Shown: positions 8,914 through 23,147 of the stretch, in pieces
How positions within the stretch are numbered: the first letter of the stretch is position 1
How the letters are laid out: every line of letters begins with the position of its first letter
NCBI GenBank assembly: GCA_965223505.1
Contig: CBDCWP010000014.1
Coordinates: forward strand, 1-48,227
Reading direction: 5' to 3'
Origin: Planctomycetota bacterium
GTDB lineage: Bacteria; Planctomycetota; PLA2; JAEUHO01
Length of the DNA: 48,227 nt
Notes under the pieces: model-generated
Databases searched by the model: none
What the model saw: only the letters and a program-made list of their open reading frames with translations
Told to the model about the DNA's origin: nothing
Translations under genes and position numbers: made by a program

Positions 8914-10004
8914 CACACGCCGGCCTTGGCCCAACCCGCGGCCTGGAGGAACATCTCCCCGGGCTTGCCGCACCAGTTGTCGATCCCCACGTGTCCCTGG
9001 CTCGAGTCGAACGGCACGTCGAGCAGGTCCGTGGCGAGCACGATGTCGGTGCCGAGCCCCACGGGCACGGCCTCGTCCATGCCCGCCGCGGCGGCCGCCG
9101 CCCACTGCGCCTGCATCCACAACCCCAGCCCGGTCTCGAGGCAGCTGCTGACGACGAACGACACGCCGGCCGCGTCGGCCTCCTTGGCCTTCGCTTCGAG
9201 CGCCCGACGTCCGCCGTGCACCGACGGCTTGTAGATCCACGCGTCGACGCAGTCGATGCCGCGCATGTTCGGGCCACCGAGGCTCTCATCGAGCGCGATC
9301 GAATGTCCCGTTCGGTCCTGCAGCGCCGCGAGATCGTTCACGTTCTCCAGCGGCTCCTCCAGGTACTCGACGCGCTCCGGATCGAGCTCGCCGAACAACG
9401 CGAGCGCCGACGCCAGGTCCAACCCGCGATTGGCGTCGAGGCGCAACCGCACCGACTTCGGCAGCGTCCCGGCGAACAACTTCAGCATCTCGCGATCCTG
9501 CTCGAGCGGCTGTCGCGCGACCTTGATCTTCACGCTCGGGTACTTGCGGTAGATCTCGTGCTCCAGAACGGCCTTCGCGTCGTCGACCGATCCAGAGAAG
9601 AACCCATTGACGTGCAGCGACGTCGGCGCGTCGCGCCCGTTCAGGCGCGCGGGCACGGTCTTCTCCTTGGTCGCCCGCAGGCCGTCCCAGGCGGACTCCA
9701 GTGCGAACACCAGCGTCGGCGGCAGATCGGAGAGCCCATCGAACAACTGCTCGGGGGCGTCGAGCGTTTGCCCGGCGATCCGTTCCGCGACGTCCTTGAG
9801 ACGCATCTGCACCTCGTCGCGCGACTCCTGGTGCAGGCCCAGCAGGGGAACGGCCTCGCCGTACCCTTCGTCGCCGTCCTCGTCGAGCAAGCGCACGACG
9901 ATGCCCTCGCGCTCGTGGATCTCGTGTCCGCCAACGGTCGCCACTCCGCGTAGCGGCAACGCATACGGCATGACGCCGAGCTCTCGAATGGTCAGCGTGC
10001 TCAT
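8913..10004 (-). CDS. menC: o-succinylbenzoate synthase (enolase superfamily)
   Basis: GYGEAVPL, KIKV, RLDANR, YLEEP, ALDESL, KPS, SSCLETGLG motifs. Operon context; ATGA overlap with menA. Confidence 0.9.
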   Translation of the reverse strand: MSTLTIRELGVMPYALPLRGVATVGGHEIHEREGIVVRLLDEDGDEGYGEAVPLLGLHQESRDEVQMRLKDVAERIAGQTLDAPEQLFDGLSDLPPTLVFALESAWDGLRATKEKTVPARLNGRDAPTSLHVNGFFSGSVDDAKAVLEHEIYRKYPSVKIKVARQPLEQDREMLKLFAGTLPKSVRLRLDANRGLDLASALALFGELDPERVEYLEEPLENVNDLAALQDRTGHSIALDESLGGPNMRGIDCVDAWIYKPSVHGGRRALEAKAKEADAAGVSFVVSSCLETGLGLWMQAQWAAAAAAGMDEAVPVGLGTDIVLATDLLDVPFDSSQGHVGIDNWCGKPGEMFLQAAGWAKAGV

Positions 10005-10894
10005 AGGGCCCTCAGGATTCCGAAGAATGCGATCGCGTACACCATCAGCATTCCTCCCGTTGTCTGCAGCGGCTTCAGCAGGCGGTCGCCCGGCTGCGCC
10101 CGAATGACCTCGCGCACGGAACCGTAGAGCGCCGCGCAAATCAGTGCCGGGACGAGCCAACCTATCAGATCAAGGCCCGTCGTGGCGGCCAGGACGACCA
10201 CCGGAATCAGGCAGCCGAGAACGACGCACGCTGTGTAGAGCGCCTTCGCGAAGCTCGCGCCCAGGCGCACGGCCAGCGTGCGCTTGCCCGCCTCGCGGTC
10301 GGTCTCGACATCCCGCAGGTTGTTCACCGTCAGCAATGCCACCGAGAAGAACCCCGGACCCAGCCCGATCAAGGCGGCTGCGGGGCTGAGCTCGAGCGTC
10401 TGCACGTAGTGCGTGCCCGCGACCGCGACGGGACCGAAGAAGATCAGCACGGCGACGTCCGCCAGGCCGATGTAGCCCAGCGGCGCCGGGCCGCCCGTGT
10501 AGGTGACGCCCAAGAGGATCGCGCAGAGCCCGATGACGGCGACCGGCCACCCCGCGCGAAGCACGAGGTAGACGCCGATGCAGAACGCGATCGAGAACGC
10601 GTACAGGAACGCGTTGCGCATCGCCGTCGGCGCAACCAGGCCGGCCTGGGTCGCCCGCGTCGGTCCCAGGCGTTCCTCGGTGTCCGCGCCCTTCAGGAAG
10701 TCGAAGTAGTCGTTCGCGTAGTTGGTCCCGATCTGGATGAAGACCGCGCCCAGCAAGGCCGCCGCCGCGGCCAACGCGTGGAAGCCCTCGTCTCGAAGCG
10801 CCAAGGCCGTGCCCATGACGACGGGTGCGATGGCCGCCGCCCACGTCTTGGGCCGCGACGCGGCGAACCAGACACGAAGGGCGGGCGCGCTCAC
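10001..10894 (-). CDS. menA: 1,4-dihydroxy-2-naphthoate polyprenyltransferase
   Basis: ASRPKT, QIGTNYANDYFDFLKGAD, NNLRDVETDREAGKRTLAVRLG, multiple TM segments. GTG 10894 overlaps the menB stop. Confidence 0.92.
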   Translation of the reverse strand: MSAPALRVWFAASRPKTWAAAIAPVVMGTALALRDEGFHALAAAAALLGAVFIQIGTNYANDYFDFLKGADTEERLGPTRATQAGLVAPTAMRNAFLYAFSIAFCIGVYLVLRAGWPVAVIGLCAILLGVTYTGGPAPLGYIGLADVAVLIFFGPVAVAGTHYVQTLELSPAAALIGLGPGFFSVALLTVNNLRDVETDREAGKRTLAVRLGASFAKALYTACVVLGCLIPVVVLAATTGLDLIGWLVPALICAALYGSVREVIRAQPGDRLLKPLQTTGGMLMVYAIAFFGILRAL

Positions 10895-11715
10895 TACGGT
10901 CGCTTGGGGAACTTGCCGAAGTCCGGCTTGCGCTTCTCGAGGAACGCGTCGCGTCCTTCCTGGCCTTCTTCCGTCATGTAGAAGAGCAGTGTCGCGTTGC
11001 CCGCCAGCTCCTGCAGGCCCGCCTGGCCGTCGCAGTCGGCGTTCAGGCCGGCTTTCAGGCAACGGATCGCGAGCGGCGAGTTGGCCAGGATCTCCTTGCA
11101 CCACTGGACCGTCTCTTCTTCGAGCTTCTCGTACGGGACGACCGTGTTGACCAGCCCCATGTCGAGCGCCTGCTGCGCGTCGTATTGGCGGCAGAGGAAC
11201 CAGATCTCGCGCGCCTTCTTCTGTCCCACGAGTCGCGCCATGTAGCTCGCGCCGTATCCGCCGTCGAACGAGCCCACGCGCGGGCCCGTCTGGCCGAAGC
11301 GCGCGTTGTCGGCGGCGATGGTGAGATCGCACATCATGTGTAGGACGTGTCCGCCGCCGATGGCGTAGCCCGCGACCATCGCGATCACCGGCTTGGGGCA
11401 GCGCCGGATCTCGCGCTGCAGGTCCAGCACGTTGAGGCGGTGAATGCCCTGCTTGTCCTTGTAGCCGGCGTCGCCGCGAATGCGCTGGTCGCCCCCGGCG
11501 CAGAAGGCGTCCTTGCCCTGGCCCGTGAAGATGATGACGCCGATCGTCTCGTCGTCGCGCGCGTCGTCCAGCGCGGCCCGCATCTCCATCACGGTGGTCG
11601 GCCGGAAGCTGTTGCGCACCTCCGGACGGTCGATGGTGATCTTGGCGATGCCGTCCCACTTCTCGTAGCGGATGTCGTCGTAGTCGCCCGCCGGCTCCCA
11701 CGGGAAGTTGGCCAT
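10894..11715 (-). CDS. menB: 1,4-dihydroxy-2-naphthoyl-CoA synthase
   Basis: Crotonase-fold MenB signatures [62 protein letters not shown]. Confidence 0.97.
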
Positions 11716-11788
11716 CGAGGTCTCCTCGGGCCGGGCAGCTCCGGCCGACGCACAGTTTCTGGGGTCGGCGGCATTCGGCCCAGGGAAG

Positions 11789-12580
11789 TCAGGGTGCGTC
11801 CAGGAACGACCGCACGCAGCGCGTGAACGCCTCCGGCTGCTCGAGATGCACGGCGTGGCCGGCCTGGGTGATGACGACCGCTTCCGCGCCGGGGCACGCG
11901 GCGAGCGCCGAGCGGTTCATGTGCATGTACTTCGCGTCCTCGGCGCCGGCCACGAGCATCAGGGGGTCCTCGCGACGGCCGAGCGCGCGCCAGTACGACG
12001 GCTGCTCGCCCAGACCGAGGCAGCGGAGCGCGCGGCTCAATCGCTCCGGATCGCCATGCAGCCGCCGCGCCAGGACCCGCGGAAACTCGTCGCTCGAACG
12101 CAGCCCGTCGAAGAGCGGCTGCGCGTACCAGTCCTCGAGGAACGCATCGAACGGCTCCGCTGCCAGCCGGTCCGCGATCACCGCGTCGCTGACTCTGCGG
12201 CGCGCGCGATCCTCCTCGTCCTCCAGGCCCGGGTTCGCGCCGAGGATCACCGCGCGGCGGATGCGGTCACCGGCCGTCGCCAGCATGCCGAACGCGATCC
12301 GACCGCCCATCGAGTACCCGAGGAGGTCGAAGGGGCCTTCGATCGAACGACCGATCCACTCGAGGACGAGCTCGCAGGTCGCTTCGAACACCGGCGCCGT
12401 CGCAGGCAGCGGCGCCGGCGACGCGCCGTGGCCCGGAAGGTCGAACGCGATGCATCGGCGCTCCCTGCCCAGGCGATCGAAGAGGTCGCCGAAGTCCTCG
12501 GCGCATCCGAGAAAGCCGTGCAGACAAACGAGCGGTGCTCCCTCGCCGGCGCCCACGTCGACGAGGCCCGGCACTCTCAC
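11789..12580 (-). CDS. menH: SHCHC synthase (alpha/beta hydrolase)
   Basis: [40 protein letters not shown]. Lies between menD and menB. Confidence 0.9.
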
Positions 12581-14286
12581 GCTCGAAGTGCTCCTTCGAT
12601 GGCCTGCTCGAGTGCCTGGTGCTGCCTGACGTTGTCGTCGAGGCTCGAGGTCACCTCGATCAGCGCCCGGTCGGGCAGCGCGACGGCGATGCGGTACGCG
12701 TCCTTGAACCCATCACGATCGTGGACGCGGAAGTAGCGCATGCCGAACATCGATGCGGCACCCTCGAAATTGAGGTCGTGCGGCGTATCGAAGTACGGAC
12801 TGAAGATGTCCTCGTGGCGGGCGATTGGCAAGAACGAGAAGATGCTTCCGCCGCCGTTGTTGCACACCACGATCGTCAGCGGCTGCTCCAGATACTGCAG
12901 ACAGCCCAGCGCGTTGATGTCGTGAAGGAGTGCGAGATCGCCGATCAGGAGCGTGGTCGGCGCGCCGAGCCCCTCGGCGAAGCCGGCAGCCGTCGAGACG
13001 ACGCCGTCGATGCCGCTGGCGCCGCGGTTGGCGTCCACCGGGAGGTTCGGGCCGTCCCACGCTGCGAAGTGCTGCACGTCGCGAATCGGCATGCTGCTCG
13101 ACAGGAAGAGCCCGTGCTCCTCGCGCATGTGCTTGCTCAGCCAACGCGCGACGAACGGTTCGCTCAGCCCGATTCCTCTGTCGAGCGCGTTCGCGAGAAT
13201 CGCGTCCACGCGTGCGCTTCGTTCGCGCAGCGCTTCGAGATCGACGCCGTCGGCGGCATCGACGCCTTCGGCCACCGCGGCGCACCATGTCGCGGGATCG
13301 GCGACGATCGCGTCCGTGATCGTGTGCCCGGGATCCAACGCCGCGCTGTGCGCGTCGACGAGGATGTAGGTCTTCTGCTTGTCCGCGTCGAGGTGTTGCT
13401 GCAAGCGCTTCGACGTGAGCCGGTGGCCGAGCTGGATCACGGTGTCGGGCGCGTAGGCGCCGACGAGGCGATCCATGTGCGCGACGTAGTTGGGCGACAC
13501 GTTGCCAAGCCGTCCGCCGGACCGAATGTCCGCCGTCCACGGCCAGCCGAGCGACGCTGCGAGCGACGCGGCGGCCGCCACGGTCCGCTCTCGGTCTGCG
13601 AGCGGGATGGCGCCGACGATCAGCAGGCCCCTTCCGCCAGGTCGGTGCGGGTCCGCACCCCTGGGTTCGAGCGCGGCTTCACAGGCTTGGGTTGCGCGAG
13701 TCTCGAGGCAGGCCGGATCCCACGCGGCTTCGGTCGGGGCAAGCGGCTCGCGAAACGGGCAGTTGACGTGCACCGGGCCTGCGACGTGTCCGGCCCGGGC
13801 GCCGAGCGCGCTCTCGTACGCGCGTTTCGCGGCGCTCTCGACCGTGGCGGCCGGCACCGTGTCGTCGGGAACGGGCAGGTCGATCGCCCAGCGCGTGTAG
13901 CCGCCGAAGATCCCCGGCTGGTCGATCGCCTGATTTGCGCCGCAGTCCAGCAGCTCCGGCGGGCGATCGGCGGTAAGGACGATCAGAGGGACGAAATCCA
14001 TCGAGGCTTCGACCACCGCCGGCAGGAGATTCGCGACCGCGGTGCCCGACGTCGTGATGACGGCGGCCGGTTGTCCGCTCCCGCGCGCGATTCCCAGCGC
14101 GTGAAACGCGGCGCCGCGCTCGTCGATGCGGATGCGCACGTCCGCGTCGTCGTTCAGCGCCGCGGCGCGCACCAACGGCGAGGAGCGCGAACCCGGCGCG
14201 ATGACCCAGCGGCGTACGCCGAGTGCGACGAGCCGATCGACGAGCAGCCGGCCCCAGAGCGCTTGGATGTTCGGTTCATCCTTCAC
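12577..14286 (-). CDS. menD: SEPHCHC synthase (TPP-dependent)
   Basis: IAPGSRSSPL, IDERGAAF, TSGTAVANL, TADRPPEL, NRGASGIDG, GDLALLHD, NNGGGSIF. Confidence 0.95.
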   Translation of the reverse strand: MKDEPNIQALWGRLLVDRLVALGVRRWVIAPGSRSSPLVRAAALNDDADVRIRIDERGAAFHALGIARGSGQPAAVITTSGTAVANLLPAVVEASMDFVPLIVLTADRPPELLDCGANQAIDQPGIFGGYTRWAIDLPVPDDTVPAATVESAAKRAYESALGARAGHVAGPVHVNCPFREPLAPTEAAWDPACLETRATQACEAALEPRGADPHRPGGRGLLIVGAIPLADRERTVAAAASLAASLGWPWTADIRSGGRLGNVSPNYVAHMDRLVGAYAPDTVIQLGHRLTSKRLQQHLDADKQKTYILVDAHSAALDPGHTITDAIVADPATWCAAVAEGVDAADGVDLEALRERSARVDAILANALDRGIGLSEPFVARWLSKHMREEHGLFLSSSMPIRDVQHFAAWDGPNLPVDANRGASGIDGVVSTAAGFAEGLGAPTTLLIGDLALLHDINALGCLQYLEQPLTIVVCNNGGGSIFSFLPIARHEDIFSPYFDTPHDLNFEGAASMFGMRYFRVHDRDGFKDAYRIAVALPDRALIEVTSSLDDNVRQHQALEQAIEGALRA

Positions 14287-14289
14287 GCG

Positions 14290-15555
14290 TCATCCTTCGG
14301 AGGGGGCTCTCAAGATCTCGTCCAACGCACGCATCTTCCCCGCGGTCTCCTGCCATTCCATCCCCGGATCAGAGCCCTGTACGATGCCCGCGCCGGCGTA
14401 GATGCGCACGTGGTTTCCTTGAATCCGCGCGCTGCGTATGCCCACCGCGACCGTCGAGTCGTCGGGCGACAGCAGGCCGACCGGCCCGCTGAACATCCAG
14501 CGCTCGAACGGCTCCAGGCGGCGAATCGTCTTCCGCGCCTCGTCCACGGGAACGCCGCACACGGCCGGCGTCGGGTGGAGCGCCCGAAGCACCTGGGAAT
14601 CGCCGACCTCGCGCCGCAGCTGTCCGCGAATGCGCGTGTGGAGATGCAGGAGATGGGGCAGCACGCGAATGCTCGGCCCGTCGACCACGAGCTCGCCGTC
14701 GATCAGCGCATCGAGCGACGTGCGGATGTGGTCCGCGACGAACGCGTGCTCTCTGCGGTCCTTCTTGCTCTCGGACAGCTCCGTCGCCAAGCGCGCGTCT
14801 TCGGCCGCGTCCGCGCCTCGCGGGCGCGTGCCGGCGAGCGCTTCGCTCTCGATCTCGCCTCCCCGGCGGCGGAACAACAGCTCCGGCGTCGCGCCGAGGA
14901 CGGCGTTGCCGGCGGCGAACTGGAACGTGAAGTGAAACATCTCGGTTTGCCGCTTTGCCAGCTGCTCCGTGATGGCGAACGGATCGGGCCGCTGCTCGAA
15001 CGTGAATACGCGCGAGCGCGTGAGCACGCACTTCGAGAGCGCGTCCGCTTCGATCGCATCGAGGATCTCGGCGACGGCGGCATCCCACGCGCTGCGTGAC
15101 GGGTGGTCGTCCACGTCGTCCGTTCGCTCGACCGGCGCCTCTGCCGCCGGCGGCCCGAGGGACGACAGCACGTGGTGTACGCGCGAGGCCGGCACTTCGT
15201 CTTCAGCGTGAACGCGAAGTACGTGGTCGTCCTCGTCGCGACGAAGCTCCACGAGCGGCGTCACCACGGTGGCCGCACCGTCGAAGCGTCCGGCGACCAG
15301 TCCGTTCCCGCCGTGGCGAACGGCGCCGAACCCGACGACGGCGGTCTCGATCTCGCGGTCGCGATCGCGCCAATAGGCGCGTTGATCGATGGACTGGCCG
15401 CGCAGCCACGGAAGCAACGGTGTTGCAGGAATCGCCACTTCGATCCGTGTGGCTTCCCGGACATCGGAGAGCGATGCGAGGAGCGCCGCGTACGCCTCGT
15501 CCAGAGTGGTGGCGTCTTCGAGCCGAACCACGGGGATCGTTCGGTACTTGGGCAA
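14290..15555 (-). CDS. menF: Isochorismate synthase
   Basis: Chorismate-binding motifs GATPELL, EALAGT, KDRREH, LHPTPAVCG, YAGAGIVQGS. First gene of the men operon; TTG start. Confidence 0.9.
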   Translation of the reverse strand: MPKYRTIPVVRLEDATTLDEAYAALLASLSDVREATRIEVAIPATPLLPWLRGQSIDQRAYWRDRDREIETAVVGFGAVRHGGNGLVAGRFDGAATVVTPLVELRRDEDDHVLRVHAEDEVPASRVHHVLSSLGPPAAEAPVERTDDVDDHPSRSAWDAAVAEILDAIEADALSKCVLTRSRVFTFEQRPDPFAITEQLAKRQTEMFHFTFQFAAGNAVLGATPELLFRRRGGEIESEALAGTRPRGADAAEDARLATELSESKKDRREHAFVADHIRTSLDALIDGELVVDGPSIRVLPHLLHLHTRIRGQLRREVGDSQVLRALHPTPAVCGVPVDEARKTIRRLEPFERWMFSGPVGLLSPDDSTVAVGIRSARIQGNHVRIYAGAGIVQGSDPGMEWQETAGKMRALDEILRAPSEG

Positions 15556-15613: not shown

Positions 15614-17242
15614 ATGCGAAGGGCCGGGCTCTGGATCGTCGTCGCTGCCCTGGTCGCGGGCGGGGTCTTCGTGTGGACGCCGTGGTCGTCCGGCGACCGG
15701 ACCGAGCTGCGGGAATTCACGAAGGCGGCGCCGGCGACGCGCGCGCCGAGCTCGCCGGTCGCGGCGACGACCTCGGAGATCCACCGGGCGGAGTCTTTGC
15801 CCCCACCCGAGACCATGCCCGGTGCGCGACCGTACGATCCGACGCCGATCGAGGGCTTCACGGAGACGCTCGTTGGGCGGGTCCTCGGCCCGAGCGGCGA
15901 GGGCGTACCGGACGTCACGCTCACGTTTCGCCTCACCGAGCCGAGGGATCACCGCGTGCCGGTGGGCAAGCGCGCGCCCGGCAAGAAGCGCGGTGGTCTG
16001 GTACGCACGGACGGTGCCGGGCGGTTCGAGGTCCCCGACGTCAACTTGATGGGCGGGATCGCGGAGGTCTGGTTTCGACGCGTGCCACGAGACTACGTCC
16101 TGCCCGTCAAGAAGCGCTTCCCGTTGAGCGGCGGCGCGGTGGAGCTCGTTCTCGAACACAGCGAGTTCATCGAGGGCATCGTGGTGCCGGACCCCGAGCG
16201 AGGCATGCCGACGTACTGCGTCGTCAACGCGCACTGGCACGACGCCGTCGGTCGCAGCCATGCGAGTGCGAAGGCCGACGCGAGCGGCCGGTTCTCGATC
16301 GGCAGCATTCCACCGGGTGCAACGGCGACGCTGGTCGCGTACGTCTCGTACGCGCGAAAAGAGGAGATTTCGGTACGACTGGACGACGGAACGGTGCATG
16401 TGTTCGGCGAGCGACCCGTCCGGAGTGGACCACCCGTCGCGACGGTTCGCGGCGTCGAGGCCGGGAACCGCTCCGTCGAGATCCGTCTGGGCGAGCAGCA
16501 ACGCGTCAAGCTCGTCGCGCTGACCCGCGCCGGGACGCCGCTCGTCCGCGCACGGATCGAGATCGAACCGCACGACGCGTCGGTGCCCAACCGGGTCGCG
16601 ATCACCGACGCGCAAGGTCGTGCCGAGATCGAGGGGCTGCCCGACGGTTCGTATTCCGCGATGCCGCTGACGAGCTCGCGTTGGGGGCCGCTCGACTTCG
16701 AGGTCGAGAACGGGAAGGTGGAGCTGGTCTTCTCCGTCATGACGAAGAAGTCACTCGTCGGACACGTGATCGGCAGCGGCGACGTCGGCGGGTTTCGGGT
16801 CGCCGCGAAGCCGAGCGACGGCGGCGCGGCGCTCATCGCCTTGACCGACGACGACGGGCGCTTCGAGCTCGAGCTCGACGATGGCGTGCCTCACGACTTG
16901 AACGTCGAGCGGTTCGGGGACGAGCGCTGCGCGCATCGGACAGGCGTCGTGGCGTCGGACGACGCGCTCACGATTCGTCTCGAACGCGGCGGGTCGATCC
17001 GCGGGCAGCTGCTCGACGTCGACGGAAAGCCGGTCGACCGTGAGGGCTGGGCGCACGCCTTCAACGAGGACGTGTTCGTAGCCGCGTCGATCCTGTCCAA
17101 GGGCCGCTTCACGCTGTACGGCCTGCCACCCGGTCGTTACACCGTGCGTGCGGGTGGCGGCGGATCTTCCTTCCATGCGGAACGGAAGGAGGTCCTGTCC
17201 GGCACCGAGGATCTCGTGCTGCGGATTCCCGAGCGGCGCTAG
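15614..17242 (+). CDS. Membrane-anchored/secreted protein with carboxypeptidase-regulatory-like (Cna-B-like) beta-sandwich repeats
   Basis: Start ATG 15614 gives an N-terminal TM (MRRAGLWIVVAALVAGGVFVW). Repeated TDxxGRF/GLPPGRY motifs. Confidence 0.75.
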   Translation: MRRAGLWIVVAALVAGGVFVWTPWSSGDRTELREFTKAAPATRAPSSPVAATTSEIHRAESLPPPETMPGARPYDPTPIEGFTETLVGRVLGPSGEGVPDVTLTFRLTEPRDHRVPVGKRAPGKKRGGLVRTDGAGRFEVPDVNLMGGIAEVWFRRVPRDYVLPVKKRFPLSGGAVELVLEHSEFIEGIVVPDPERGMPTYCVVNAHWHDAVGRSHASAKADASGRFSIGSIPPGATATLVAYVSYARKEEISVRLDDGTVHVFGERPVRSGPPVATVRGVEAGNRSVEIRLGEQQRVKLVALTRAGTPLVRARIEIEPHDASVPNRVAITDAQGRAEIEGLPDGSYSAMPLTSSRWGPLDFEVENGKVELVFSVMTKKSLVGHVIGSGDVGGFRVAAKPSDGGAALIALTDDDGRFELELDDGVPHDLNVERFGDERCAHRTGVVASDDALTIRLERGGSIRGQLLDVDGKPVDREGWAHAFNEDVFVAASILSKGRFTLYGLPPGRYTVRAGGGGSSFHAERKEVLSGTEDLVLRIPERR

Positions 17243-17251
17243 CTGCTTCGA

Positions 17252-18384
17252 TCAGCGTATGAGGAACCAGAGTTGCGGTCCGACGCCGGTGTTCGCGGGT
17301 CCGCAGAACACCGCGACATCGCCCGACTGCGATACGCCCCCACGGTAGTTCTGGGGTCCGCCTCCTTCGACCAACAGCCGGCCGTCGGGGAGGACCGCGT
17401 AGTCCAAGCCGACCGACGTGAAAACCGGAACGGTGAGCATCCCGTCGATGTTCTGCAGCACGGGGGAGAGCTCCAGGATTCCCGGCGACGTCGTCTTCGC
17501 GTTCGTGATCATCGAGAACCACGTCGGGGGCGCCGTACCGAAGGCTGCAATCAACGCCGACGCATACGTTCCCGACAACGTCGCGTTCGAAGCCCCGACC
17601 GCGGCCTTGACGAGAACGACCAGGATCGGCGCTTGGCCGGCGGCGCCGCCGCCCAGCACGACGAGGTCGCCGTTGGCGACAATCGAGCCTTCCAACGTGA
17701 ACGGTACGTCCAACGAGAAGCTGCCCGTGACGGTACCGTCGGCGGCAACGTTGTACGTGATCGGTCCCGTGTCGATGCCGCCGATGACGCCGCCGATGTT
17801 GCTCTCCGTCGTCGCGGTGCCGCCGCCAATGCCGTCGAACGACGCGCTGCCGAAGAAGGTCGCCGCCTGCGTCCGTGACCTCGTAGTAGAAGAACGCGCA
17901 CAGGTGGTATTGCCCCTGGAGGCTCGCGTTGCTGTGGGTGCCCTGTTGTCGCCCCATGATCATGAGATCGGTGGGACCGAGCACGGAGCAGCCGAACGCC
18001 AGGGAGCCGTCGGCGGAGATGGCGCCCAGCATGGTCACCACGCCGCCGCTCGTCGGCAGGAACTTGAGCACGCGGTCGGCGTCGATGTGGTAGTCGAACA
18101 GGGTCGTCGGGAACGGGCCGTTGATCGCGCCGTTGCTGTTGGACGTCACAGATCCCGGCGCCAAGAACGCGCCGGCGCCGTCACCGATCCAGGTGCCCCA
18201 CCGGGCGGTGCCCAGGAGTTGGTTGCCGCCGAACGACGTCGAGTAGTAGGTGCCTGTGAGCAGCGTGAGCGGATCCACCGGCGAGCCCGCGGGACGCCGA
18301 CGGGGCGTTGCCACCGCCGCCGCAGGCGCCCATGAGGGGGAGCGCGCCGAGCACGAGGATCGTCAGCAGGCTTCGCATTCGCAT
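17252..18384 (-). CDS. Lipoprotein with three internal beta-rich repeats, split by two frameshifts (~18300 and ~17875)
   Basis: Lipobox LMGA-CGGGG in ORF 18181..18384 (AGGAG RBS). Continues in the frame of 17109..18314, then in the frame ending at 17252. Repeats LTGTY / SNASLQGQY / SNATLSGTY link the three pieces. Confidence 0.65.
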
Positions 18385-18510: not shown

Positions 18511-19650
18511 TCACTCCGTGCCGTCGGCTTCCTGGACGAGACCGCGAACCTGCTTGATCAGGTCGCCCTGACCGAACACGAAGCTCGTCTTCGCACCGGC
18601 CAGCACTTCCTGCAGGAGCTCCAGCTCCTTCATGCGAGCGAGCACCGGGTTGTCCGCCAGCAGCTTGGCCGTGTTGGCCTGGCTACGCGCGGCCGCCGTC
18701 TCCTCGCGACGACGAATCAGGTTGGCCTCGGCCGCCTTCTGGGCCGTGATCACCTGGTTCAGGATCGTCTTCATGTCGCCCGGCAGGACGATGTCGCGCA
18801 GACCCACGCTGCGGACCGTGACGCCGAACGTCGCGGCGCGCTCGGCCAGGGCCTCACGCACCGTCGCGCCGACGGCTTCCTTGTCCGTCAGCAGGCCGTC
18901 CAGCGCGCGCGTACCCACGGCCGCCCGCAGTGCGAGCTGCGCGTCGCGGTACAGCGCCTGCTCCGCGTCGTTCGTCGCCTCGACGGACTTGACCGGGTCG
19001 TCGATCTGGTACGTCACGACGAGGTTCATGCGCAGCGTGACCTTGTCACGCGTCATGATCTCCTGGCCGGCGACGTCGAGCGTCTGCTCACGACGATCGA
19101 GCTCACGCGTCACGATGCGACCCGTCTGCTTCCAGTACGCGTAGCGACCGTGCAGCAGGCGCGTGACGAGCTCGTTGTCGCGGTAGACCAGGACCTCGGC
19201 GTACGGGTTCACGTTGACCGTTCCCAGGAACTCGCCGTAGCCCGGGTGTGCCAGGACGACCTCGAGCTGCTCGTGCTCGAAGCGGAAGCCCTCGATGTCG
19301 AAGACCTCGATCTTCACGTCGTACGGCTCCTTCCAGAACGCGTACAGGCCCGGGCCCAGGATCTGGAACAGACGGCCGTCACGCCAGACGAGTGCACGCT
19401 GCGTATCACGCAGGTCCACGACGTGCAGCGCGTCCGCCAGCGCCGGGTCCTTCACCAGGACCCGCAGCCACGGGTGAACGAGCGCCGTATCGAGCGTGTT
19501 CACGACGTAGACGAGGACCCTGCGGACGTTCAGCGGAAACGCCGGCAGCCAGTGCGTACCCGGCTGCAGGAGCTTGCGGAAGTCACCGCGCTGGAACATG
19601 AGGCCGCGCTGGTGCTTGAGGACGTGCTTGCGCTCGAGAAACAGGGCCAT
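18511..19650 (-). CDS. Slipin family SPFH/band-7 protein
   Basis: N-terminal LLxPGxHW/LGPGLYAFW repeats, GQEIMTRDKVTLRMN, QLALRAAVGTRALD, EANLIRRREETAAARSQANTAKL. Strong RBS AAAGGAGG upstream of ATG 19650. Confidence 0.9.
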   Translation of the reverse strand: MALFLERKHVLKHQRGLMFQRGDFRKLLQPGTHWLPAFPLNVRRVLVYVVNTLDTALVHPWLRVLVKDPALADALHVVDLRDTQRALVWRDGRLFQILGPGLYAFWKEPYDVKIEVFDIEGFRFEHEQLEVVLAHPGYGEFLGTVNVNPYAEVLVYRDNELVTRLLHGRYAYWKQTGRIVTRELDRREQTLDVAGQEIMTRDKVTLRMNLVVTYQIDDPVKSVEATNDAEQALYRDAQLALRAAVGTRALDGLLTDKEAVGATVREALAERAATFGVTVRSVGLRDIVLPGDMKTILNQVITAQKAAEANLIRRREETAAARSQANTAKLLADNPVLARMKELELLQEVLAGAKTSFVFGQGDLIKQVRGLVQEADGTE

Positions 19651-19730
19651 GGAGCACCTCCTTTCGAATCGTGGGTCCATGGGGGTCGTGGATGGCGGAC
19701 CGGAACCGCTCCGGTGCGCGAAGGGAAAGT

Positions 19731-20017
19731 GCGGGTTGCGAGGCCACCGGCTGGTCGGCCCCTGCGGCCCGGCGGACACGAAGTTCGAGGTTCGGTCCAT
19801 CGTCTGGATCGAACAGGTCCGCCGGGCCGCACCGCGTGGACGGCGCGCCGAGTCCCGCCTTCAGTGGGGACGGGTGGACGGCGCGTCGCAGGCGATGGGT
19901 GGTGAACCGGTATCCCTTCGTGTTCGAAGCCGTTTGGCAGGTGTCACGCCGATGTCGGCCGTCGAAACGGCGTTCAAGGGCGGGACGGGACGACGAGCGG
20001 CGCTACTCGCAACCCGC
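19731..20017 (-). ncRNA. Putative large structured non-coding RNA / leader upstream of slipin
   Basis: Nested perfect complementarities: 19731-19742 with 20006-20017 (12 bp), 19763-19777 with 19817-19831 (15 bp), 19852-19859 with 19979-19986 (8 bp), GCCGTTT/AAACGGC within 19929-19971. No credible ORF. Confidence 0.55.
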
Positions 20018-20039
20018 GTTGTCGGATGGCGCCCTTGCG

Positions 20040-20112
20040 GGCGAAGGCAGGACTCGAACCTGCAACCTCTCGATCCACCATCGTGTGCTCTAACCAGTTG
20101 AGCTACATAGGA
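20040..20112 (-). ncRNA. tRNA-like element 2 (D, anticodon and T arms present; no acceptor stem; GTG at the anticodon position)
   Basis: TA-GCTC-AACTGGTTA-GAGC-A-CACGA-TGGTGGA-TCGAG-AGGTT-GCAGG-TTCGAGT-CCTGC with canonical spacing. G at position 33. Positions 1-7 (TCCTATG) do not pair with 66-72 (CTTCGCC). Confidence 0.75.
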
Positions 20113-20181
20113 GAGAATGACGGGAGTCGAACCCGTGCTTCACGGCTCAGGCCGTGCGCTCTGCCACTGAGCTACATTCCC
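20113..20181 (-). ncRNA. tRNA-like element 1 (full cloverleaf, aberrant 6-nt anticodon loop, no encoded CCA)
   Basis: GGGAATG/CATTCTC acceptor stem, GCTC-AGTGGCA-GAGC D arm, CACGG-CCTGAG-CCGTG anticodon arm, ACGGG-TTCGACT-CCCGT T arm. Confidence 0.8.
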
Positions 20182-20667
20182 GGTAGTGGCCTCGCTTTCA
20201 TGCGAGTCACGACGCTGACGCTTCCGATGCTGTCGTCGGAACACTCGCAGTCGATACCGGAACGGCAGACTGTGGGCGCCGGCAGCACGCCAACGCGAAC
20301 TTCTACGCTCAGCGAATGCGTCCAGGCAATCGCTGTCGAGCGCTTGACGATGCGGCGACGGGTCGCAGCGGGTTCGCCGTGCGTGTGGGGTATGAGCGGC
20401 GTTTTGATGATTGCCTCACTGCGTTGCCTCCATCGCGCGGCCGCACGAGCCGGGCGCTGACTTTCGTCTAGGTCGCGAAACGGAACACCGGACATCGAAA
20501 CAACGGGACAGCGCTCCGCAGCGACGAGGAACAGACGAAGAGAACGACGAACGGGTTCCGCGGTTCGCGAGGTTTTTCTCGTCAGGAGGCGTAACCCGTC
20601 GTCCCGCCGAGGCGATGTTGGTCTGGGGGGCCCGCCGAGGGCGCTTGCGATCGCGATGCGTTCGCGC

Positions 20668-23092
20668 CTAGCCCGACGGACGCAGGTGCACGGTCTTCTC
20701 GACGTCGATCTCCTTCGGATCCAGATCGACCTGCTCCTCGTGCGTCTCGTACCCATCCGCGCTGATACGCAGGATGCGCTTGCCCGACGGCGCCGGCATC
20801 AGATACTCGCCGCCCTCCCTCGAACCGGGCCATGTCGACGCCGTCGAGCCTGAGCACCTCGATCTTGCATCGCTCGATCGGCTTGTCCGTCCCCAGCTCC
20901 TTCAGCAAGACCGTGAGATGGATGTCGACCGTGTCGGGGCTGATGCGCTTCAGCGCGACCTCCTGCTCGAACACGCCGTCGACCGGCTTCACCTCGACAT
21001 CCACCTCGATCGTCTCGTGATCGAGTCCCTCGACCACGAGCGTGTAGCGCCCGGCCTCCGCGATGCCGCCGTAGCGTTGCTTCTCCCGGTCGTAAGCCAG
21101 ATACGGAGCGCGCCGCTCTTCGCCCTCAGGAGGCTTCGCGCTGCAGCGGCAACGCTTCACCGGTTCGCCCGTCGCCGCGTCCTGCACCGTCAGACGCCAG
21201 TCCACGTAGCGAACGGGCAGCTGCAGCCGCACCTCTTCCGTCGTCAGGCCCTCATCGAACTGCTTCCGCGTCGAGCCGTAATAGGGAATCTTGCCGGCCT
21301 GCACCTCGACGGATGTCGTCCGCAAGTCCTCGGCGAGCTTCTCGAAGACGAATCGACCGTCGTCGTCCGAACGCGTCGAACGCAGCGTCATCTTGCGCTT
21401 GTTCGAGTTGAGGTACACGTACGCCTGCGGGACGATCTCACCCTCGGGGCCCACCACCACGCCTCGAAGCGTAACCGTTCCTTGTTCCTTGTAGTCGAGC
21501 GCGAAGTCGAGCTCCGTACGGCCCTGCGGCTTGACGACGACCGTCTTCGGCGGCGCTTCGTAGCTCCATAAGCTGACGCTGATCGTCTGCTCGCCCGCAG
21601 GGAGGCCCTGCAGCTCGTACGTGCCGTCCTTGCTGGTGCGGATCTGGTTGTAGCCGGCGATCACGTTGACGTTTCGCGCGGGGTTGCCCTGCGGGTCGAG
21701 GACCTTGCCGTACACCGTTCCCATCTCGCCGAACGAGAACGGCAACGTCACCTGCACCTGCGCCGTCGCGTTGTCCTTCAACAACACACGCACCGAGGTC
21801 GTCGCATCCAGGCCGCCGGGTCCGTTGAGACGGTTGTTGATGTTGCCCGCCACCGCGGCCCCGCCCGACGGCAACGCCTCGGCCTCGAGCGTCCCGTTCG
21901 CCGTCGTCTTGCCGACCTTGCGGATGTCGCCGAACGAAACCCCCTTCACGCCGACGAGGTCCGGCGGCGTCAGGTACACGTCGGCGTTCGGAATCGGGTT
22001 GCCGTCCTGATCGAGCACGGTCACCAGCAGGGTCGCCTTGCCCGCCGCGGGCGGCGCCAGCCCGAACCGCGTCCAGTGACCCGTCGGGCCGCCGAAGCCG
22101 CCACCGCCCATGCGGCGTCCGGGCCTGCGCTTCGGCAGTCCGAACGGGCTGCGCCGCTGCGCCGGCTCGACCGTGTCCCAGTCGACGTCCTCGTCGCCCT
22201 TCACCGTCGTCGCGGTGTCGTCCTCGCCGCCGGTCGTCTCGGCGGCGCCCCCTCCACTCGCGTGCGCCGCCGTCTCGTCGTCGACGGCCGGACGCGTGAG
22301 CGGATCCCTCAGCGATCCGGCGCCGCCCGGCTCGAGCCCGGCGGCGTCCCCGGTGCCCTCGTCCGCCACGCTCAGGTCCTTCGCGTCGCCGCTCCCGGTG
22401 CCGCTGTCGAACAGCGACGGGCCGAACCACACGATGCCTCCGATGAACAGCGCGGCGACGGAAACGACCGCCAACGACTTCGCAGTGACCTGATTCATGA
22501 CGTTTGCTCCCAGGGTGGTCAGGGAGGATCCATCGACCAGCGGGCGCCACGCCGCCAGCGGCATGAGCGCGGTCAGCCACGCCTTGCGGCTCCCGCCGTG
22601 CGCGTCGTCGAGCCGGCGCCTGAGCACCTGCAACCCGCGCTGCAGCTGGCTCTTGACCGTGGCCACGGGCCGCTTCGTGCGCTTCGCGATCTCGCGCGGC
22701 GGCCGCGCCTCGAAGTAGCGCATCCAGATGACCGATCGGTAGGGCTCGTCCAGCGTGCGTACGGCCCGCAAGACGGTCTGCTGCTCGTCGATGCGCGCAA
22801 GCACGTCCAACGTGGACGGCGTCGCTTCCTTCTTCGCCCCGGACTGCTCGCGCGCCTCGCGGCGCGACTCGGCGCGGTGCCAGCTGCGCGCGACGTTGCG
22901 GATCGCGCCCGACAGGCACGCCTTCACGCCGCGCCGCGGCCGCACCGCGCCCTCGAGCGAGCGCAGCGCGGCCTCCTGCACGACGTCCTCGGCGCTGTCG
23001 AAGTCGCGCACGAGGCTGCGCGCCAGCCGTCGAAGCTGGCGGGCCTGGAGCGCAATCGCTTCGGCGTCGGTCTGGGACGGATCGATCGACAA
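20668..23092 (-). CDS. ECF sigma-70 factor fused via a TM helix to an extracytoplasmic carboxypeptidase-regulatory-like repeat region (frameshift near 20815)
   Basis: Sigma2 (LRRLARSLV...AEDVVQEA) and sigma4 (LDEPYRSVIWMRYFE...EIA...ATVKSQLQRG), TM (LAVVSVAALFIGGIVWF), beta-sandwich repeats. The C-terminus continues in another frame (GEYLMPAPSGKRILRISADGYE...LRPSG*, stop 20668). TTG 23092 with GGAGG upstream. Confidence 0.8.
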
Positions 23093-23147
23093 TGGACCTC
23101 CACCCTTGGGTTCCCGCAGCGGGCCGTTCGGATGCACCCAAATCCTA

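What the first reader, a model, noticed from the sequence alone, without database searches (positions are those of the whole stretch)
19731..20017. ~290-nt multi-helix RNA domain in the slipin leader
A perfect 12-bp helix closes the domain (19731-19742/20006-20017). It encloses a perfect 15-bp helix, an 8-bp long-range helix and further stems. A 12-nt direct repeat GTGGACGGCGCG (19836-19847, 19874-19885) could allow alternative pairing or tandem protein binding. It resembles no riboswitch or ribozyme I recognise.
Basis: seen in the sequence. Interest (0 to 1): 0.7.

Follow-up and report, generated by a model that had tools for sequence, protein, structure and literature searches.

The report
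Ornate tRNA-linked RNA before SPFH gene
The flagged stretch is a real, evolutionarily conserved folded RNA domain, the body of a roughly 600-base RNA that carries tRNA look-alikes and always sits in front of a stomatin-like (SPFH) gene, a pairing that has been predicted before but never characterised.

Summary
The helices are real and lie on the minus strand, the strand of the SPFH ("slipin") gene. Folding beats shuffles (z -6.2). The domain (20017-19731) belongs to a larger RNA: a 5' hairpin element (20309-20202), two abutting tRNA-like modules (20181-20044), a GCAA hairpin, the closed domain, then a linker, the ribosome-binding site and the SPFH start.

The same layout recurs upstream of SPFH orthologues across Phycisphaerae. 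Covariation is strong: 87.7% of cells paired against about 40% in slid controls, and 50 of 60 pairs change on both sides. A model built without the window still finds it (42.8 bits, E 3.6e-7).

The perfect 15-bp helix and the direct repeat are not shared by the two same-family relatives that could be compared. The 15-bp helix competes with the conserved arm.

No Rfam family matches. The protein is a full-length homologue of the Band-7 proteins that follow tRNA-like RNAs in RtcR/RlaP RNA-repair loci of Burkholderia and E. coli. I therefore read this as an elaborate variant of the predicted "b7a-tRNA"/Band-7 pair, here set in tRNA gene arrays. The function is inferred: most likely an RNA partner or leader of the SPFH protein.

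The parts
20202..20309 (-). 5' hairpin element of the RNA. It has an outer helix, a conserved GGCGGCGC segment, an inner hairpin and a GUGUUCCG motif.
   Evidence: Model R2 scores it at 54.6 bits (the window was in the seed). On alignment A5, 83.5% of cells pair, against 72.7% shuffled and 30-47% slid. In the outer helix, 8 of 9 pairs change on both sides.
20110..20181 (-). tRNA-like module 1. It has a 7-bp acceptor stem, a D arm and a T arm, but a 6-nt anticodon loop.
   Evidence: ARAGORN reports 'tRNA-???' with a two-base anticodon. Rfam tRNA scores 57.4 bits.
20044..20108 (-). tRNA-like module 2. It abuts module 1 and its acceptor stem is cut down to about 3 bp.
   Evidence: Rfam tRNA scores 35.3 bits over model positions 5-66 only. 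ARAGORN does not call it. The equivalent modules in relatives carry different anticodons.
20030..20043 (-). Small hairpin with a GCAA loop, directly after module 2.
   Evidence: Read from the sequence. A GCAA-loop hairpin stands at the same place after the tRNA-like module in Burkholderia locus L162.
19731..20017 (-). The flagged domain, closed by helix P1 (20017-20006 pairs with 19742-19731).
   Evidence: Fold z -6.16. In alignment A2, P1 is 96.6% paired and 11 of 12 pairs change on both sides. The domain ends were set by a best-helix search, which flatters P1.
19760..19942 (-). The conserved long arm of the domain. Helix P3 is 19941-19938 / 19764-19761, P4 is 19932-19929 / 19773-19770, P5 is 19923-19916 / 19783-19776 and P7 is 19908-19904 / 19793-19789. 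The arm ends in a variable tip.
   Evidence: The leave-one-out model R3 scores it at 42.8 bits, E 3.6e-7. Model R1 scores it at 72.3 bits with the window in the seed.
19909..19915 (-). Conserved GGAUACC segment between P5 and P7. It faces the near-invariant C..CAA(G) segment on the 3' side (CUCGAA in the window).
   Evidence: These columns are nearly invariant in A2 and A3. An exact GGATACC occurs in 35 of 78 loci.
19763..19831 (-). The perfect 15-bp helix (19831-19817 pairs with 19777-19763). It is an alternative pairing seen only in the window. Its 3' arm overlaps the 3' strands of P3 and P4.
   Evidence: Its pairing probability is about 1.0, against 1e-7 for P5. Only 3 of 27 consensus arm pairs are in the window's minimum-energy fold, whereas 35 of 52 family members keep at least 80% of theirs.
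19833..19888 (-). The two copies of the direct repeat, with the hairpin they form in the variable tip of the arm.
   Evidence: (D1, I8) and the fold. The region is gappy and unconserved in A2 and A3.
19662..19730 (-). Linker between P1 and the ribosome-binding site. It starts with a pyrimidine-rich tract (19730-19718).
   Evidence: My duplex test gives no support for an anti-Shine-Dalgarno role.
19648..19661 (-). Shine-Dalgarno GGAGG (19661-19657) and the ATG start (19650-19648).
   Evidence: Read from the sequence. The translation aligns from its first residues with 8 orthologues.
18511..19650 (-). SPFH/Band-7 (stomatin-type, 'slipin') gene of 379 aa. No membrane helix is predicted.
   Evidence: Pfam Band_7 at 1.8e-27. 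Matches to solved stomatin structures. AlphaFold2 model with mean pLDDT 80. The highest 19-residue Kyte-Doolittle hydropathy is 1.05.

Best explanation
The 287-nt stretch is the 3' body of a large structured RNA of about 580 nt (window 20309 to 19731, minus strand).

Layout. The RNA consists of a 5' hairpin element, two non-decoding tRNA-like modules, a small GCAA hairpin, and a junction domain closed by helix P1. That domain carries a long irregular arm (P3-P4-P5, a GGAUACC / CUCAAG internal loop, P7-P8). The RNA lies in one transcription unit with, and directly upstream of, a soluble stomatin-type SPFH protein.

What it is. It is the Phycisphaerae form of the predicted band-7-associated tRNA-like RNA (b7a-tRNA) that accompanies this SPFH subfamily in RtcB/RtcR/RlaP RNA-repair loci of other phyla.

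Mechanism I commit to (inferred, not shown):
1. The RNA is made as the 5' part of the SPFH transcript. In many relatives that transcript reads out of, or lies inside, a tRNA gene array.
2. It is trimmed by tRNA-processing enzymes at the tRNA-like modules and cut in the A/U- or pyrimidine-rich linker after P1.
3. The folded RNA then acts as the cognate RNA partner of the SPFH protein. It presents tRNA mimics on a rigid scaffold, as Y RNA does for Ro, for tRNA/RNA surveillance or repair.

The window's own copy. It carries a 15-bp helix that competes with the conserved arm. It may therefore switch between two folds, or be a drifting copy.
For: SHOWN
- Fold. z -6.16 on the minus strand.
- Layout in the family. 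The same layout stands upstream of all 8 SPFH orthologues found in the taxonomic family.
- Layout more widely. A T-arm motif lies 300-700 nt upstream of the SPFH start in 72 of 78 non-duplicate loci.
- Whole-domain covariation (A2, 20 sequences). 87.7% of cells pair, against 72.2% shuffled and 38-42% slid. 50 of 60 pairs change on both sides. The covariation score is 0.487, against 0.219 shuffled and 0.08-0.14 slid.
- Arm model R1. It hits 52 of 83 loci, 35 of them not in the seed. On that alignment 89.7% of cells pair and 34 of 35 pairs change on both sides; the alignment is fitted to the model.
- Leave-one-out model R3. It finds the window at 42.8 bits, E 3.6e-7. The next best hit is 14.3 bits.
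- Copy number and position. There is one copy per genome, always just upstream of the SPFH gene on the same strand.
- 5' element. It is conserved and covaries.
- tRNA-like modules. Each RNA has 1-3 of them. Their anticodons differ between orthologous loci, some loops are irregular and some acceptor stems are truncated.
- Protein homology. P0001 is 36-38% identical over 97-98% of its length to E. coli, Citrobacter and Burkholderia proteins.
- Those homologues' loci. Each shows a sigma-54-type motif, tRNA-like or T-arm modules and a leader ahead of the SPFH gene. Burkholderia has RtcR divergent upstream; E. coli has RlaP downstream.
- Distant homologues. All 10 homologues at 35-41% identity that have at least 600 nt upstream carry T-arm modules 290-460 nt before the start.
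- Literature. A passage of bioRxiv 10.1101/312249 describes the predicted b7a-tRNA next to a Band-7 protein and RtcB, and says it has not been validated by experiment.

INFERRED
- Processing of the RNA, binding by the SPFH protein, and a role in RNA repair or surveillance.
Against: - No expression data could be obtained, so a separate, processed RNA is not shown (one search lists no RNA run).
- The window has no RNA-repair gene next to the module. In the 92%-complete genome, RtcB lies on another contig, and RlaP, RtcR and Ro/TROVE were not found.
- No sigma-54 motif lies near the RNA.
- RNA-level homology to the proteobacterial leaders is not established. R1 finds nothing in L161 or L162 (best E 0.22, filters off). 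R2 gives only a partial hit at E 0.059 in E. coli.
- The RNA is always fused to the 5' side of the gene and is followed by a strong, conserved ribosome-binding site. That equally fits a purely cis-acting leader.
- The N-terminal half of the protein is only mildly basic (pI about 9 in 8 of 9 orthologues), so RNA binding is not evident from composition.
- In the window's own copy, the thermodynamic model prefers the fold with the non-family 15-bp helix by 14.5 kcal/mol.
Confidence: 0.5

Rival explanations
1. It is a purely cis-acting leader, either riboswitch-like or bound by a protein or a tRNA. The folded domain senses a ligand, a protein (possibly the SPFH protein itself) or the state of tRNA processing. 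It then sets translation or stability of the SPFH mRNA, without ever acting as a separate RNA.
For: - It is always directly upstream of the SPFH gene and on the same strand, with one copy per genome.
- A strong GGAGG-type ribosome-binding site is conserved downstream.
- Near-invariant unpaired nucleotides sit in an internal loop (GGAUACC / CUCAAG), as in ligand or protein pockets.
- In the window, two mutually exclusive folds exist.
Against: - No expression platform was found. There is no intrinsic terminator.
- The tract after P1 pairs with the ribosome-binding site less well than control windows do (mean -8.7 against -10.8 kcal/mol, median rank 0.79).
- The distance from P1 to the start codon varies from 39 to 247 nt.
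- In 35 of 52 members a single fold dominates, so there is no general two-state design.
- At about 600 nt with tRNA mimics, it is far larger than known riboswitches (my own knowledge).
Confidence: 0.3
2. It is a processing and insulation element of tRNA-array transcripts. The pseudo-tRNAs act as RNase P / RNase Z handles that cut the SPFH mRNA free from neighbouring tRNAs. The closed domain merely protects the new 5' end from decay.
For: - In many relatives the module lies inside tRNA gene arrays, with genuine tRNAs on the same strand upstream and downstream.
- The tRNA-like modules keep the acceptor-stem, D-arm and T-arm features that processing enzymes read, while the anticodon is free to vary.
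Against: - A stabiliser would not need about 60 covarying pairs, near-invariant loop nucleotides and a separate conserved 5' hairpin element.
- The same RNA-plus-SPFH pairing occurs behind sigma-54 promoters with no tRNA array in Burkholderia and E. coli.
- The window itself has no genuine tRNA nearby.
Confidence: 0.12
3. In this genome the copy is a decaying relic. The family RNA is real, but the window's version has drifted: it has a 15-bp competing helix and an irregular anticodon loop, and it no longer folds or works like its relatives.
For: - The window is the extreme outlier. Only 3 of 27 consensus arm pairs are in its minimum-energy fold.
- The family fold costs 14.5 kcal/mol more than that minimum-energy fold.
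Against: - All family helices (P1, P3, P4, P5, P7) can still form, with compensatory changes.
- The GGAUACC segment is intact.
- The SPFH reading frame is open and conserved.
- A perfect 15-nt complement to a conserved strand is unlikely to arise by drift; my rough estimate of the chance expectation is below 1e-3.
Confidence: 0.06

Closest known systems
b7a-tRNA (band-7-associated tRNA-like RNA) with its Band-7/SPFH protein in RtcB/RtcR RNA-repair operons. It was predicted by Burroughs & Aravind 2016 (paper not held; I saw only the passage in bioRxiv 10.1101/312249).
   Same: - A tRNA-like RNA stands directly upstream of, and co-oriented with, a Band-7 gene.
- The protein here is a full-length homologue (36-38% identity) of the E. 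coli and Burkholderia proteins in such loci.
- Those loci also have 1-2 T-arm modules followed by a leader of about 180-260 nt before the SPFH start.
   Different: - No RtcB, RtcR, RlaP or sigma-54 promoter lies at the locus here.
- Relatives of the window sit in tRNA arrays.
- The RNA here is far larger than 'a tRNA-like molecule', with a 5' hairpin element and a covarying domain of about 290 nt. I found neither described in the text I could read.
- RNA-level homology to the proteobacterial leaders is not shown.
Bacterial Y RNA (YrlA) with Ro/Rsr
   Same: A non-coding RNA with a tRNA-mimic module is encoded next to its scaffold protein and is linked by context to RtcB repair (passage in 10.1101/312249).
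   Different: - The Rfam YrlA match reaches only 29.1 bits against a gathering score of 69.
- That match merely spans the T arm of module 1 and the D arm of module 2. The same artefact appears between genuine tandem tRNAs.
- No TROVE gene was found in the genome.
GOLLD and ROOL (large ornate RNAs near tRNA islands)
   Same: These are large, multi-helix RNAs that often lie near tRNA islands. GOLLD sometimes carries covalently linked tRNAs (passages of PMC12286853).
   Different: - There is no Rfam match to either.
- Both are phage or prophage RNAs with no obligatory protein gene.
- This RNA is chromosomal and strictly tied to an SPFH gene.
Vault RNA with major vault protein
   Same: - A small RNA is paired with a cage-forming protein built of beta-repeat domains, an SPFH-like shoulder and a long helix.
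- The model of P0001 aligns to rabbit MVP over residues 8-342 (Z 12.5, 231 residues aligned, rmsd 7.2). MVP is the only listed family whose alignment also covers the N-terminal repeats.
   Different: - No Pfam Vault or MVP family matches P0001.
- The likeness is structural only and middling.
- Vault RNAs are about 100 nt and are not tRNA-like (my own knowledge).

Membership tests
b7a-tRNA / Band-7 pair | A tRNA-like module immediately upstream of, and co-oriented with, a Band-7/SPFH gene | tested here: met
   Two tRNA-like modules lie at 20181-20044 on the minus strand. The Band_7 protein starts at 19650 on the same strand.
b7a-tRNA / Band-7 pair | The Band-7 protein belongs to the subfamily found in RNA-repair loci | tested here: met
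   P0001 shows 36-38% identity over 97-98% of its length to the E. coli and Burkholderia proteins. Their loci carry RlaP or RtcR together with tRNA-like leaders.
b7a-tRNA / Band-7 pair | Linked RNA-repair genes (RtcB, RtcR, RlaP) and a sigma-54 promoter at the locus | tested here: not met
   The neighbours are menaquinone genes, an ECF-sigma fusion and IleRS. RtcB lies on contig C4. RlaP and RtcR were not found in the 92%-complete genome. No sigma-54 motif lies near the RNA.
b7a-tRNA / Band-7 pair | RNA sequence and structure homologous to the leaders of proteobacterial Band-7 genes | tested here: inconclusive
   R2 gives a partial hit in E. coli L161 (17.5 bits, E 0.059). R1 gives no hit (best E 0.22). 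By eye, a shared GUGUUCC motif lies before the T arm.
Genuine decoding tRNA | A 7-nt anticodon loop, a full 7-bp acceptor stem, and an anticodon conserved among orthologous genes | tested here: not met
   Module 1 has a 6-nt loop. Module 2 matches tRNA model positions 5-66 only. The anticodons differ at orthologous positions.
YrlA (Y RNA-like, RF02553) | Reaches the Rfam gathering score, with an adjacent Ro/TROVE gene | tested here: not met
   The match scores 29.1 bits against a gathering score of 69. No TROVE match was found in the genome.
GOLLD / ROOL / OLE / other Rfam families | A match to the family's covariance model | tested here: not met
   Only tRNA reaches the gathering score in the window. 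Nothing credible appears at E up to 10 in 19500-20400. In 10 typical loci, the only matches at E up to 0.1 outside the tRNA genes and tRNA-like modules are three weak YrlA artefacts at T-arm/D-arm junctions.
Riboswitch | A conserved aptamer coupled to an expression platform (a terminator, or sequestration of the ribosome-binding site) | tested here: inconclusive
   No terminator was found. The anti-Shine-Dalgarno test was negative. Conserved loop nucleotides do exist. Ligand binding cannot be tested with these tools.
MITE / repeat element | Several copies in the genome, bounded by terminal inverted repeats | tested here: not met
   It is a single copy in the own genome.

The most novel reading that the evidence does not exclude
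The RNA and its SPFH protein form a bacterial ribonucleoprotein cage. The protein is soluble and built like a miniature major vault protein: three beta repeats, an SPFH shoulder and a long helix. It would assemble into a ring or cage that holds this ornate RNA. The RNA's covalently linked tRNA mimics would bait or guide tRNA-damaging and tRNA-repairing enzymes. That would tie together the vault, Ro-Y RNA and SPFH-cage themes and explain why the module sits in tRNA arrays. In the window's lineage, the 15-bp helix would act as a fold switch that hides or exposes the conserved arm.
Probability: 0.15. Interest if true: 0.9.

Novelty: new variant of a known kind. Interest (0 to 1): 0.66.

Why it matters
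The pairing of a Band-7 protein with a tRNA-like RNA has so far been only a comparative-genomics prediction. The one passage I could read (10.1101/312249) says it has not been validated by experiment, and Rfam 15 has no model for it.

This work adds three things:
- In Phycisphaerae the RNA is not a lone tRNA mimic. It is a large multi-domain RNA with about 85 covarying base pairs (60 in the domain, 25 in the 5' element).
- The RNA-protein pair has left the RtcB operon and settled in tRNA gene arrays.
- The protein partner lacks a membrane anchor and has a vault-like build.

The alignments and covariance models made here give a concrete structural model, usable for an Rfam entry. They also give a tractable two-part system (one RNA, one protein) for testing what SPFH proteins do with RNA.

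Tried and rejected
- Repeat or MITE reading. Rejected: one copy in the genome.
- Known RNA families. Only tRNA reaches the gathering score. The YrlA sub-threshold hits are junction artefacts of tandem T arm plus D arm.
- Anti-Shine-Dalgarno role of the pyrimidine tract after P1. Rejected by a duplex test on 49 loci: mean -8.7 kcal/mol against -10.8 for control windows of the same domain, median rank 0.79.
- Promoter and terminator scans of 19500-20700. None found. No sigma-54 consensus lies near the RNA (3 matches elsewhere in the window, fewer than in shuffles).
- Expression. No RNA holder is listed among the public runs. I did not lay reads, because contigs cannot show RNA ends.
- Close relatives to test the 15-bp helix. 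None exist: the best metagenome relative is 64% identical in protein, and no genome of the same genus is held.
- Whole-domain covariance model.
- R1 on the proteobacterial loci L161 and L162, and on the 35-41%-identity metagenome loci. No hit.
- P1-type closing helices in distant loci. They are suggestive by eye in L143, L148 and L154 but not significant against shuffles one sequence at a time (6-12 of 100 shuffles as good).
- Coding reading. The overlapping plus-strand ORFs and the 50-codon upstream extension of the SPFH frame have no Pfam match.
- Phylum-wide sample. Only 3 of 151 genomes matched R1, under stricter filters and with few candidates scored, so that figure understates the spread.
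- Burroughs & Aravind 2016 (PMC5062991) is not held. What that paper says beyond the quoted passage is recalled, not seen.
Full report
1. THE OBSERVATION

The window region 19300-20500 holds an SPFH gene on the minus strand. Its ATG is at 19650-19648, preceded by GGAGG at 19661-19657. Its product is a Band_7 protein (Pfam 1.8e-27).

- The 12-bp closing helix appears in both folds and in my helix scan.
- The perfect 15-bp helix, the 18-nt direct repeat with its 12-nt core, and the long-range helix are listed (I1, D1, I7).

The 287-nt stretch folds at -154.3 kcal/mol on the minus strand, against -124.5 +/- 4.8 for 200 dinucleotide shuffles (z -6.16, none as good). The plus strand gives z -5.03. 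The own genome holds no second copy, so this is not a repeat element.

2. WHAT SURROUNDS IT

Directly upstream on the minus strand lie two abutting tRNA-like modules.
- Module 1 (20181-20110) scores 57.4 bits with Rfam tRNA. ARAGORN gives it a two-base "anticodon", meaning a 6-nt loop.
- Module 2 (20108-20044) scores 35.3 bits and matches model positions 5-66 only, meaning a truncated acceptor stem.

Rfam gives nothing else at the gathering score. At E up to 10 the only other notable match is YrlA at 29.1 bits against a gathering score of 69. That match simply spans the T arm of module 1 and the D arm of module 2. The same artefact appears between genuine tandem tRNAs elsewhere.

3. HOMOLOGUES

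The genome belongs to the Phycisphaerae (Planctomycetota), judging by the record titles.

Nine of the 40 genomes of the order, the window's own included, carry the SPFH gene, all in its taxonomic family (8 orthologues at 55-63% identity). All eight orthologues show the same upstream layout: tRNA-like module(s), then about 370-450 nt, then the ribosome-binding site. ARAGORN calls such modules in 6 of the 8; in the other 2 (L031, L032) they are visible only in the sequence and by T- and D-arm motifs.

A scan of one genome per species found 445 relatives of the protein, and I kept the best 80 loci. After removing 6 duplicates and 5 loci with under 700 nt upstream, 78 loci remained. Of these, 72 have a T-arm motif 300-700 nt upstream of the start. 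The 6 without one were dropped from the later alignments.

The "anticodons" at orthologous positions differ freely: Ile, Asp, Phe, Arg, Leu, Glu, Ser, Val, Tyr, His, Met, a stop anticodon, and 2- or 4-base loops. Each RNA has 1, 2 or 3 T-arm modules (20, 25 and 3 of 48 loci). These modules are therefore structural tRNA mimics, not decoding tRNAs.

In 13 of the 80 loci, three or more ARAGORN tRNA calls lie on the same strand within 1.3 kb upstream; in most of these the set includes one or two of the RNA's own tRNA-like modules. In several loci more tRNAs follow the SPFH gene. The module thus sits inside tRNA gene arrays.

4. THE CONSERVED STRUCTURE

A MAFFT alignment of the 72 leaders shows conserved blocks.

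Closing helix. A helix of 10 bp or more, with many compensatory changes, closes a domain of 220-350 nt in most loci.

Whole-domain alignment. I aligned 20 domains, including the window's (A2), choosing loci with clear closings. The domain ends were set by a best-helix search within 12 nt of the aligned columns, which flatters P1.

The RNAalifold structure of A2 was counted:

| Measure | Observed | Shuffled | Slid by 1-3 columns |
|---|---|---|---|
| Cells paired | 87.7% | 72.2% | 38-42% |
| Covariation score | 0.487 | 0.219 | 0.08-0.14 |

In addition, 50 of 60 pairs change on both sides.

Arm model. I therefore modelled the long arm alone (R1: 156 positions, 35 pairs).
- R1 hits 52 of 83 loci at E up to 0.01, 35 of them outside the seed.
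- On that alignment, which is fitted to the model, 89.7% of cells pair, against 66.7% shuffled and 30-43% slid. 34 of 35 pairs change on both sides.
- R1 finds one copy in the own genome.
- In a 151-genome sample of the phylum it finds 3 genomes, one hit each, under stricter filters. Both new hits precede an SPFH orthologue on the same strand.
- It finds 6 of 39 metagenome loci.

Leave-one-out control. Model R3, built without the window, finds window 19942-19760 on the minus strand at 42.8 bits, E 3.6e-7. The next best hit is 14.3 bits.

From:
It changes sequence as a whole relative to the family consensus.
- P3, P4 and P7 can also form.
- The near-invariant GGAUACC segment is at 19915-19909.

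The perfect 15-bp helix is different. Its 3' arm (19777-19763) overlaps the 3' strands of P4 and P3, so it excludes the conserved arm.
- In the window, the minimum-energy fold (-154.3 kcal/mol) uses the 15-bp helix. The family-compatible fold reaches -139.8.
- Across 52 members, 35 have at least 80% of the consensus arm pairs in their own minimum-energy fold. The window has 3 of 27 and is the extreme outlier. The two same-family relatives that R1 hits (L033, L035) do not share this feature.

The direct repeat lies in the variable tip of the arm and is not conserved.

6. THE RNA IS LONGER THAN THE FINDING

A conserved hairpin element lies upstream of the tRNA-like modules.
- In alignment A5 (28 sequences), 83.5% of cells pair, against 72.7% shuffled and 30-47% slid. 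In the outer helix, 8 of 9 pairs change on both sides.
- Model R2 places the element at window 20309-20202. It also finds it in 20 of the 21 searched loci in which my simple motif search had missed it (19 'no motif' loci plus L034 and L037, whose motif matches lay elsewhere); L115 was not hit.

The whole RNA therefore spans about 20309 to 19731.

7. WHAT IT IS LIKE

Earlier notes of this scan pointed me to the "b7a-tRNA", a tRNA-like RNA predicted next to Band-7 proteins in RtcB repair operons. A passage of bioRxiv 10.1101/312249 describes it and says it is unvalidated. The original 2016 paper is not held.

I tested the lead as follows.
- Protein homologues. P0001 has full-length homologues (36-38% identity, 97-98% coverage) in E. 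coli, Citrobacter and Burkholderia.
- E. coli locus. It shows a sigma-54-type motif, then a leader with a GUGUUCC motif and a T arm, then the "slipin" gene and RlaP.
- Burkholderia locus. It shows divergent RtcR, a sigma-54-type motif, a hairpin-plus-T-arm mini-module, a full tRNA-like module (Rfam 44 bits), a GCAA hairpin, and about 260 nt of GC-rich leader before the SPFH gene.
- Distant metagenome homologues. All 10 at 35-41% identity with enough upstream sequence have T-arm modules 290-460 nt before the start. Three of them show, by eye, the 5' element, a mini-module and a covarying P1-like closure. Those closures are not significant one sequence at a time.

At the RNA level the link to the proteobacterial leaders stays open. 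R1 gives no hit and R2 gives only a partial hit at E 0.059 in E. coli.

In the window's genome RtcB lies on another contig. RlaP, RtcR and TROVE were not found in the 92%-complete genome. No sigma-54 motif is near the RNA. The neighbours are unrelated genes.

8. THE PROTEIN

- The SPFH domain is stomatin-type.
- No membrane helix is predicted.
- The AlphaFold2 model (mean pLDDT 80) shows three five-stranded beta repeats, the SPFH domain and a long helix.
- Among solved structures, the listed stomatin, HflK/C and prohibitin alignments start at model residue 118 or later. Only major vault protein aligns the N-terminal repeats as well (9z4w_1: Z 12.5, 231 residues, rmsd 7.2, model 8-342 against chain 324-699). 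This is a middling structural likeness. No Pfam Vault family matches.
- Bacterial MVP homologues in print are from other phyla (abstract of 10.1101/872010).

9. MECHANISM

Shown. It is a large, conserved, strand-specific RNA structure. There is one copy per genome. It is always fused upstream of this SPFH subfamily and carries non-decoding tRNA mimics.

Inferred. It is the cognate RNA of the SPFH protein. It is processed at the tRNA-like modules and after P1, and it serves tRNA/RNA surveillance or repair, by analogy with Ro-Y RNA and with the predicted b7a system. I put this at about 0.5.

Rivals:
- A purely cis-acting leader is the main rival (0.3). I found no terminator. The tract after P1 shows no special complementarity to the ribosome-binding site. 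The spacing from P1 to the start varies from 39 to 247 nt.
- A processing or stabilising role in tRNA-array transcripts (0.12).
- A drifting copy in this genome (0.06).

No expression data could be had.

10. NOVELTY

The kind, a Band-7 protein with a tRNA-like RNA, is a known prediction. Several points are, as far as my searches reach, not in print:
- the multi-domain architecture with about 85 covarying pairs;
- the 5' element;
- the tRNA-array setting without repair genes;
- the window's competing 15-bp helix.

Those searches were made, plus Rfam 15. The 2016 paper and its supplements could not be read, so it may describe more than the passage I saw.

Noticed in passing
window 18511-19650 (-): The SPFH protein has no predicted membrane segment. 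Its model shows three N-terminal five-stranded beta repeats, an SPFH domain and a long helix. Among solved structures, only major vault protein aligns the repeats as well (Z 12.5).
   Followed up: partly
L048, L074, L089, L093, L119 (whole loci): In many Phycisphaerae relatives the RNA-plus-SPFH module is embedded in large tRNA gene arrays. L048 has more than 20 tRNA hits upstream; L089 and L093 have further tRNAs downstream. A recurring upstream set is Lys, Lys, Thr, Arg, Asn, Trp.
   Followed up: partly
L143, L148, L154 (about 560 nt upstream of the SPFH start): Distant homologues (38-41% protein identity, GC 44-50%) appear by eye to have the same parts: a 5' element, a full tRNA-like module, a hairpin-plus-T-arm mini-module, and a P1-like closure that covaries among the three, followed by a U-rich tract. 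Models R1 and R2 do not detect them.
   Followed up: partly
window 20582-23137 (-): An 851-aa protein with ECF-type sigma-70 regions 2 and 4 at its N-terminus is fused to CarboxypepD_reg and Ig-like repeats. It ends about 270 nt upstream of the RNA's 5' element, on the same strand.
   Followed up: no
window 10001-15555 (-): A run of menaquinone-type genes on the minus strand: UbiA prenyltransferase, a TPP enzyme (MenD-like) and a chorismate-binding enzyme.
   Followed up: no
L048 874-929 and 1980-2033; L074 944-1007: Sub-threshold Rfam YrlA hits (28-32 bits) arise wherever a T arm is followed by a D arm, whether of tandem tRNAs or tRNA-like modules. Such hits are not evidence of a Y RNA.
   Followed up: yes
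window 17109-18314 (-): The 401-codon ORF just downstream of the SPFH gene has no Pfam match. Its C-terminal half is arginine-rich and of low complexity. It may be a mis-framed or spurious ORF of this GC-rich genome.
   Followed up: no
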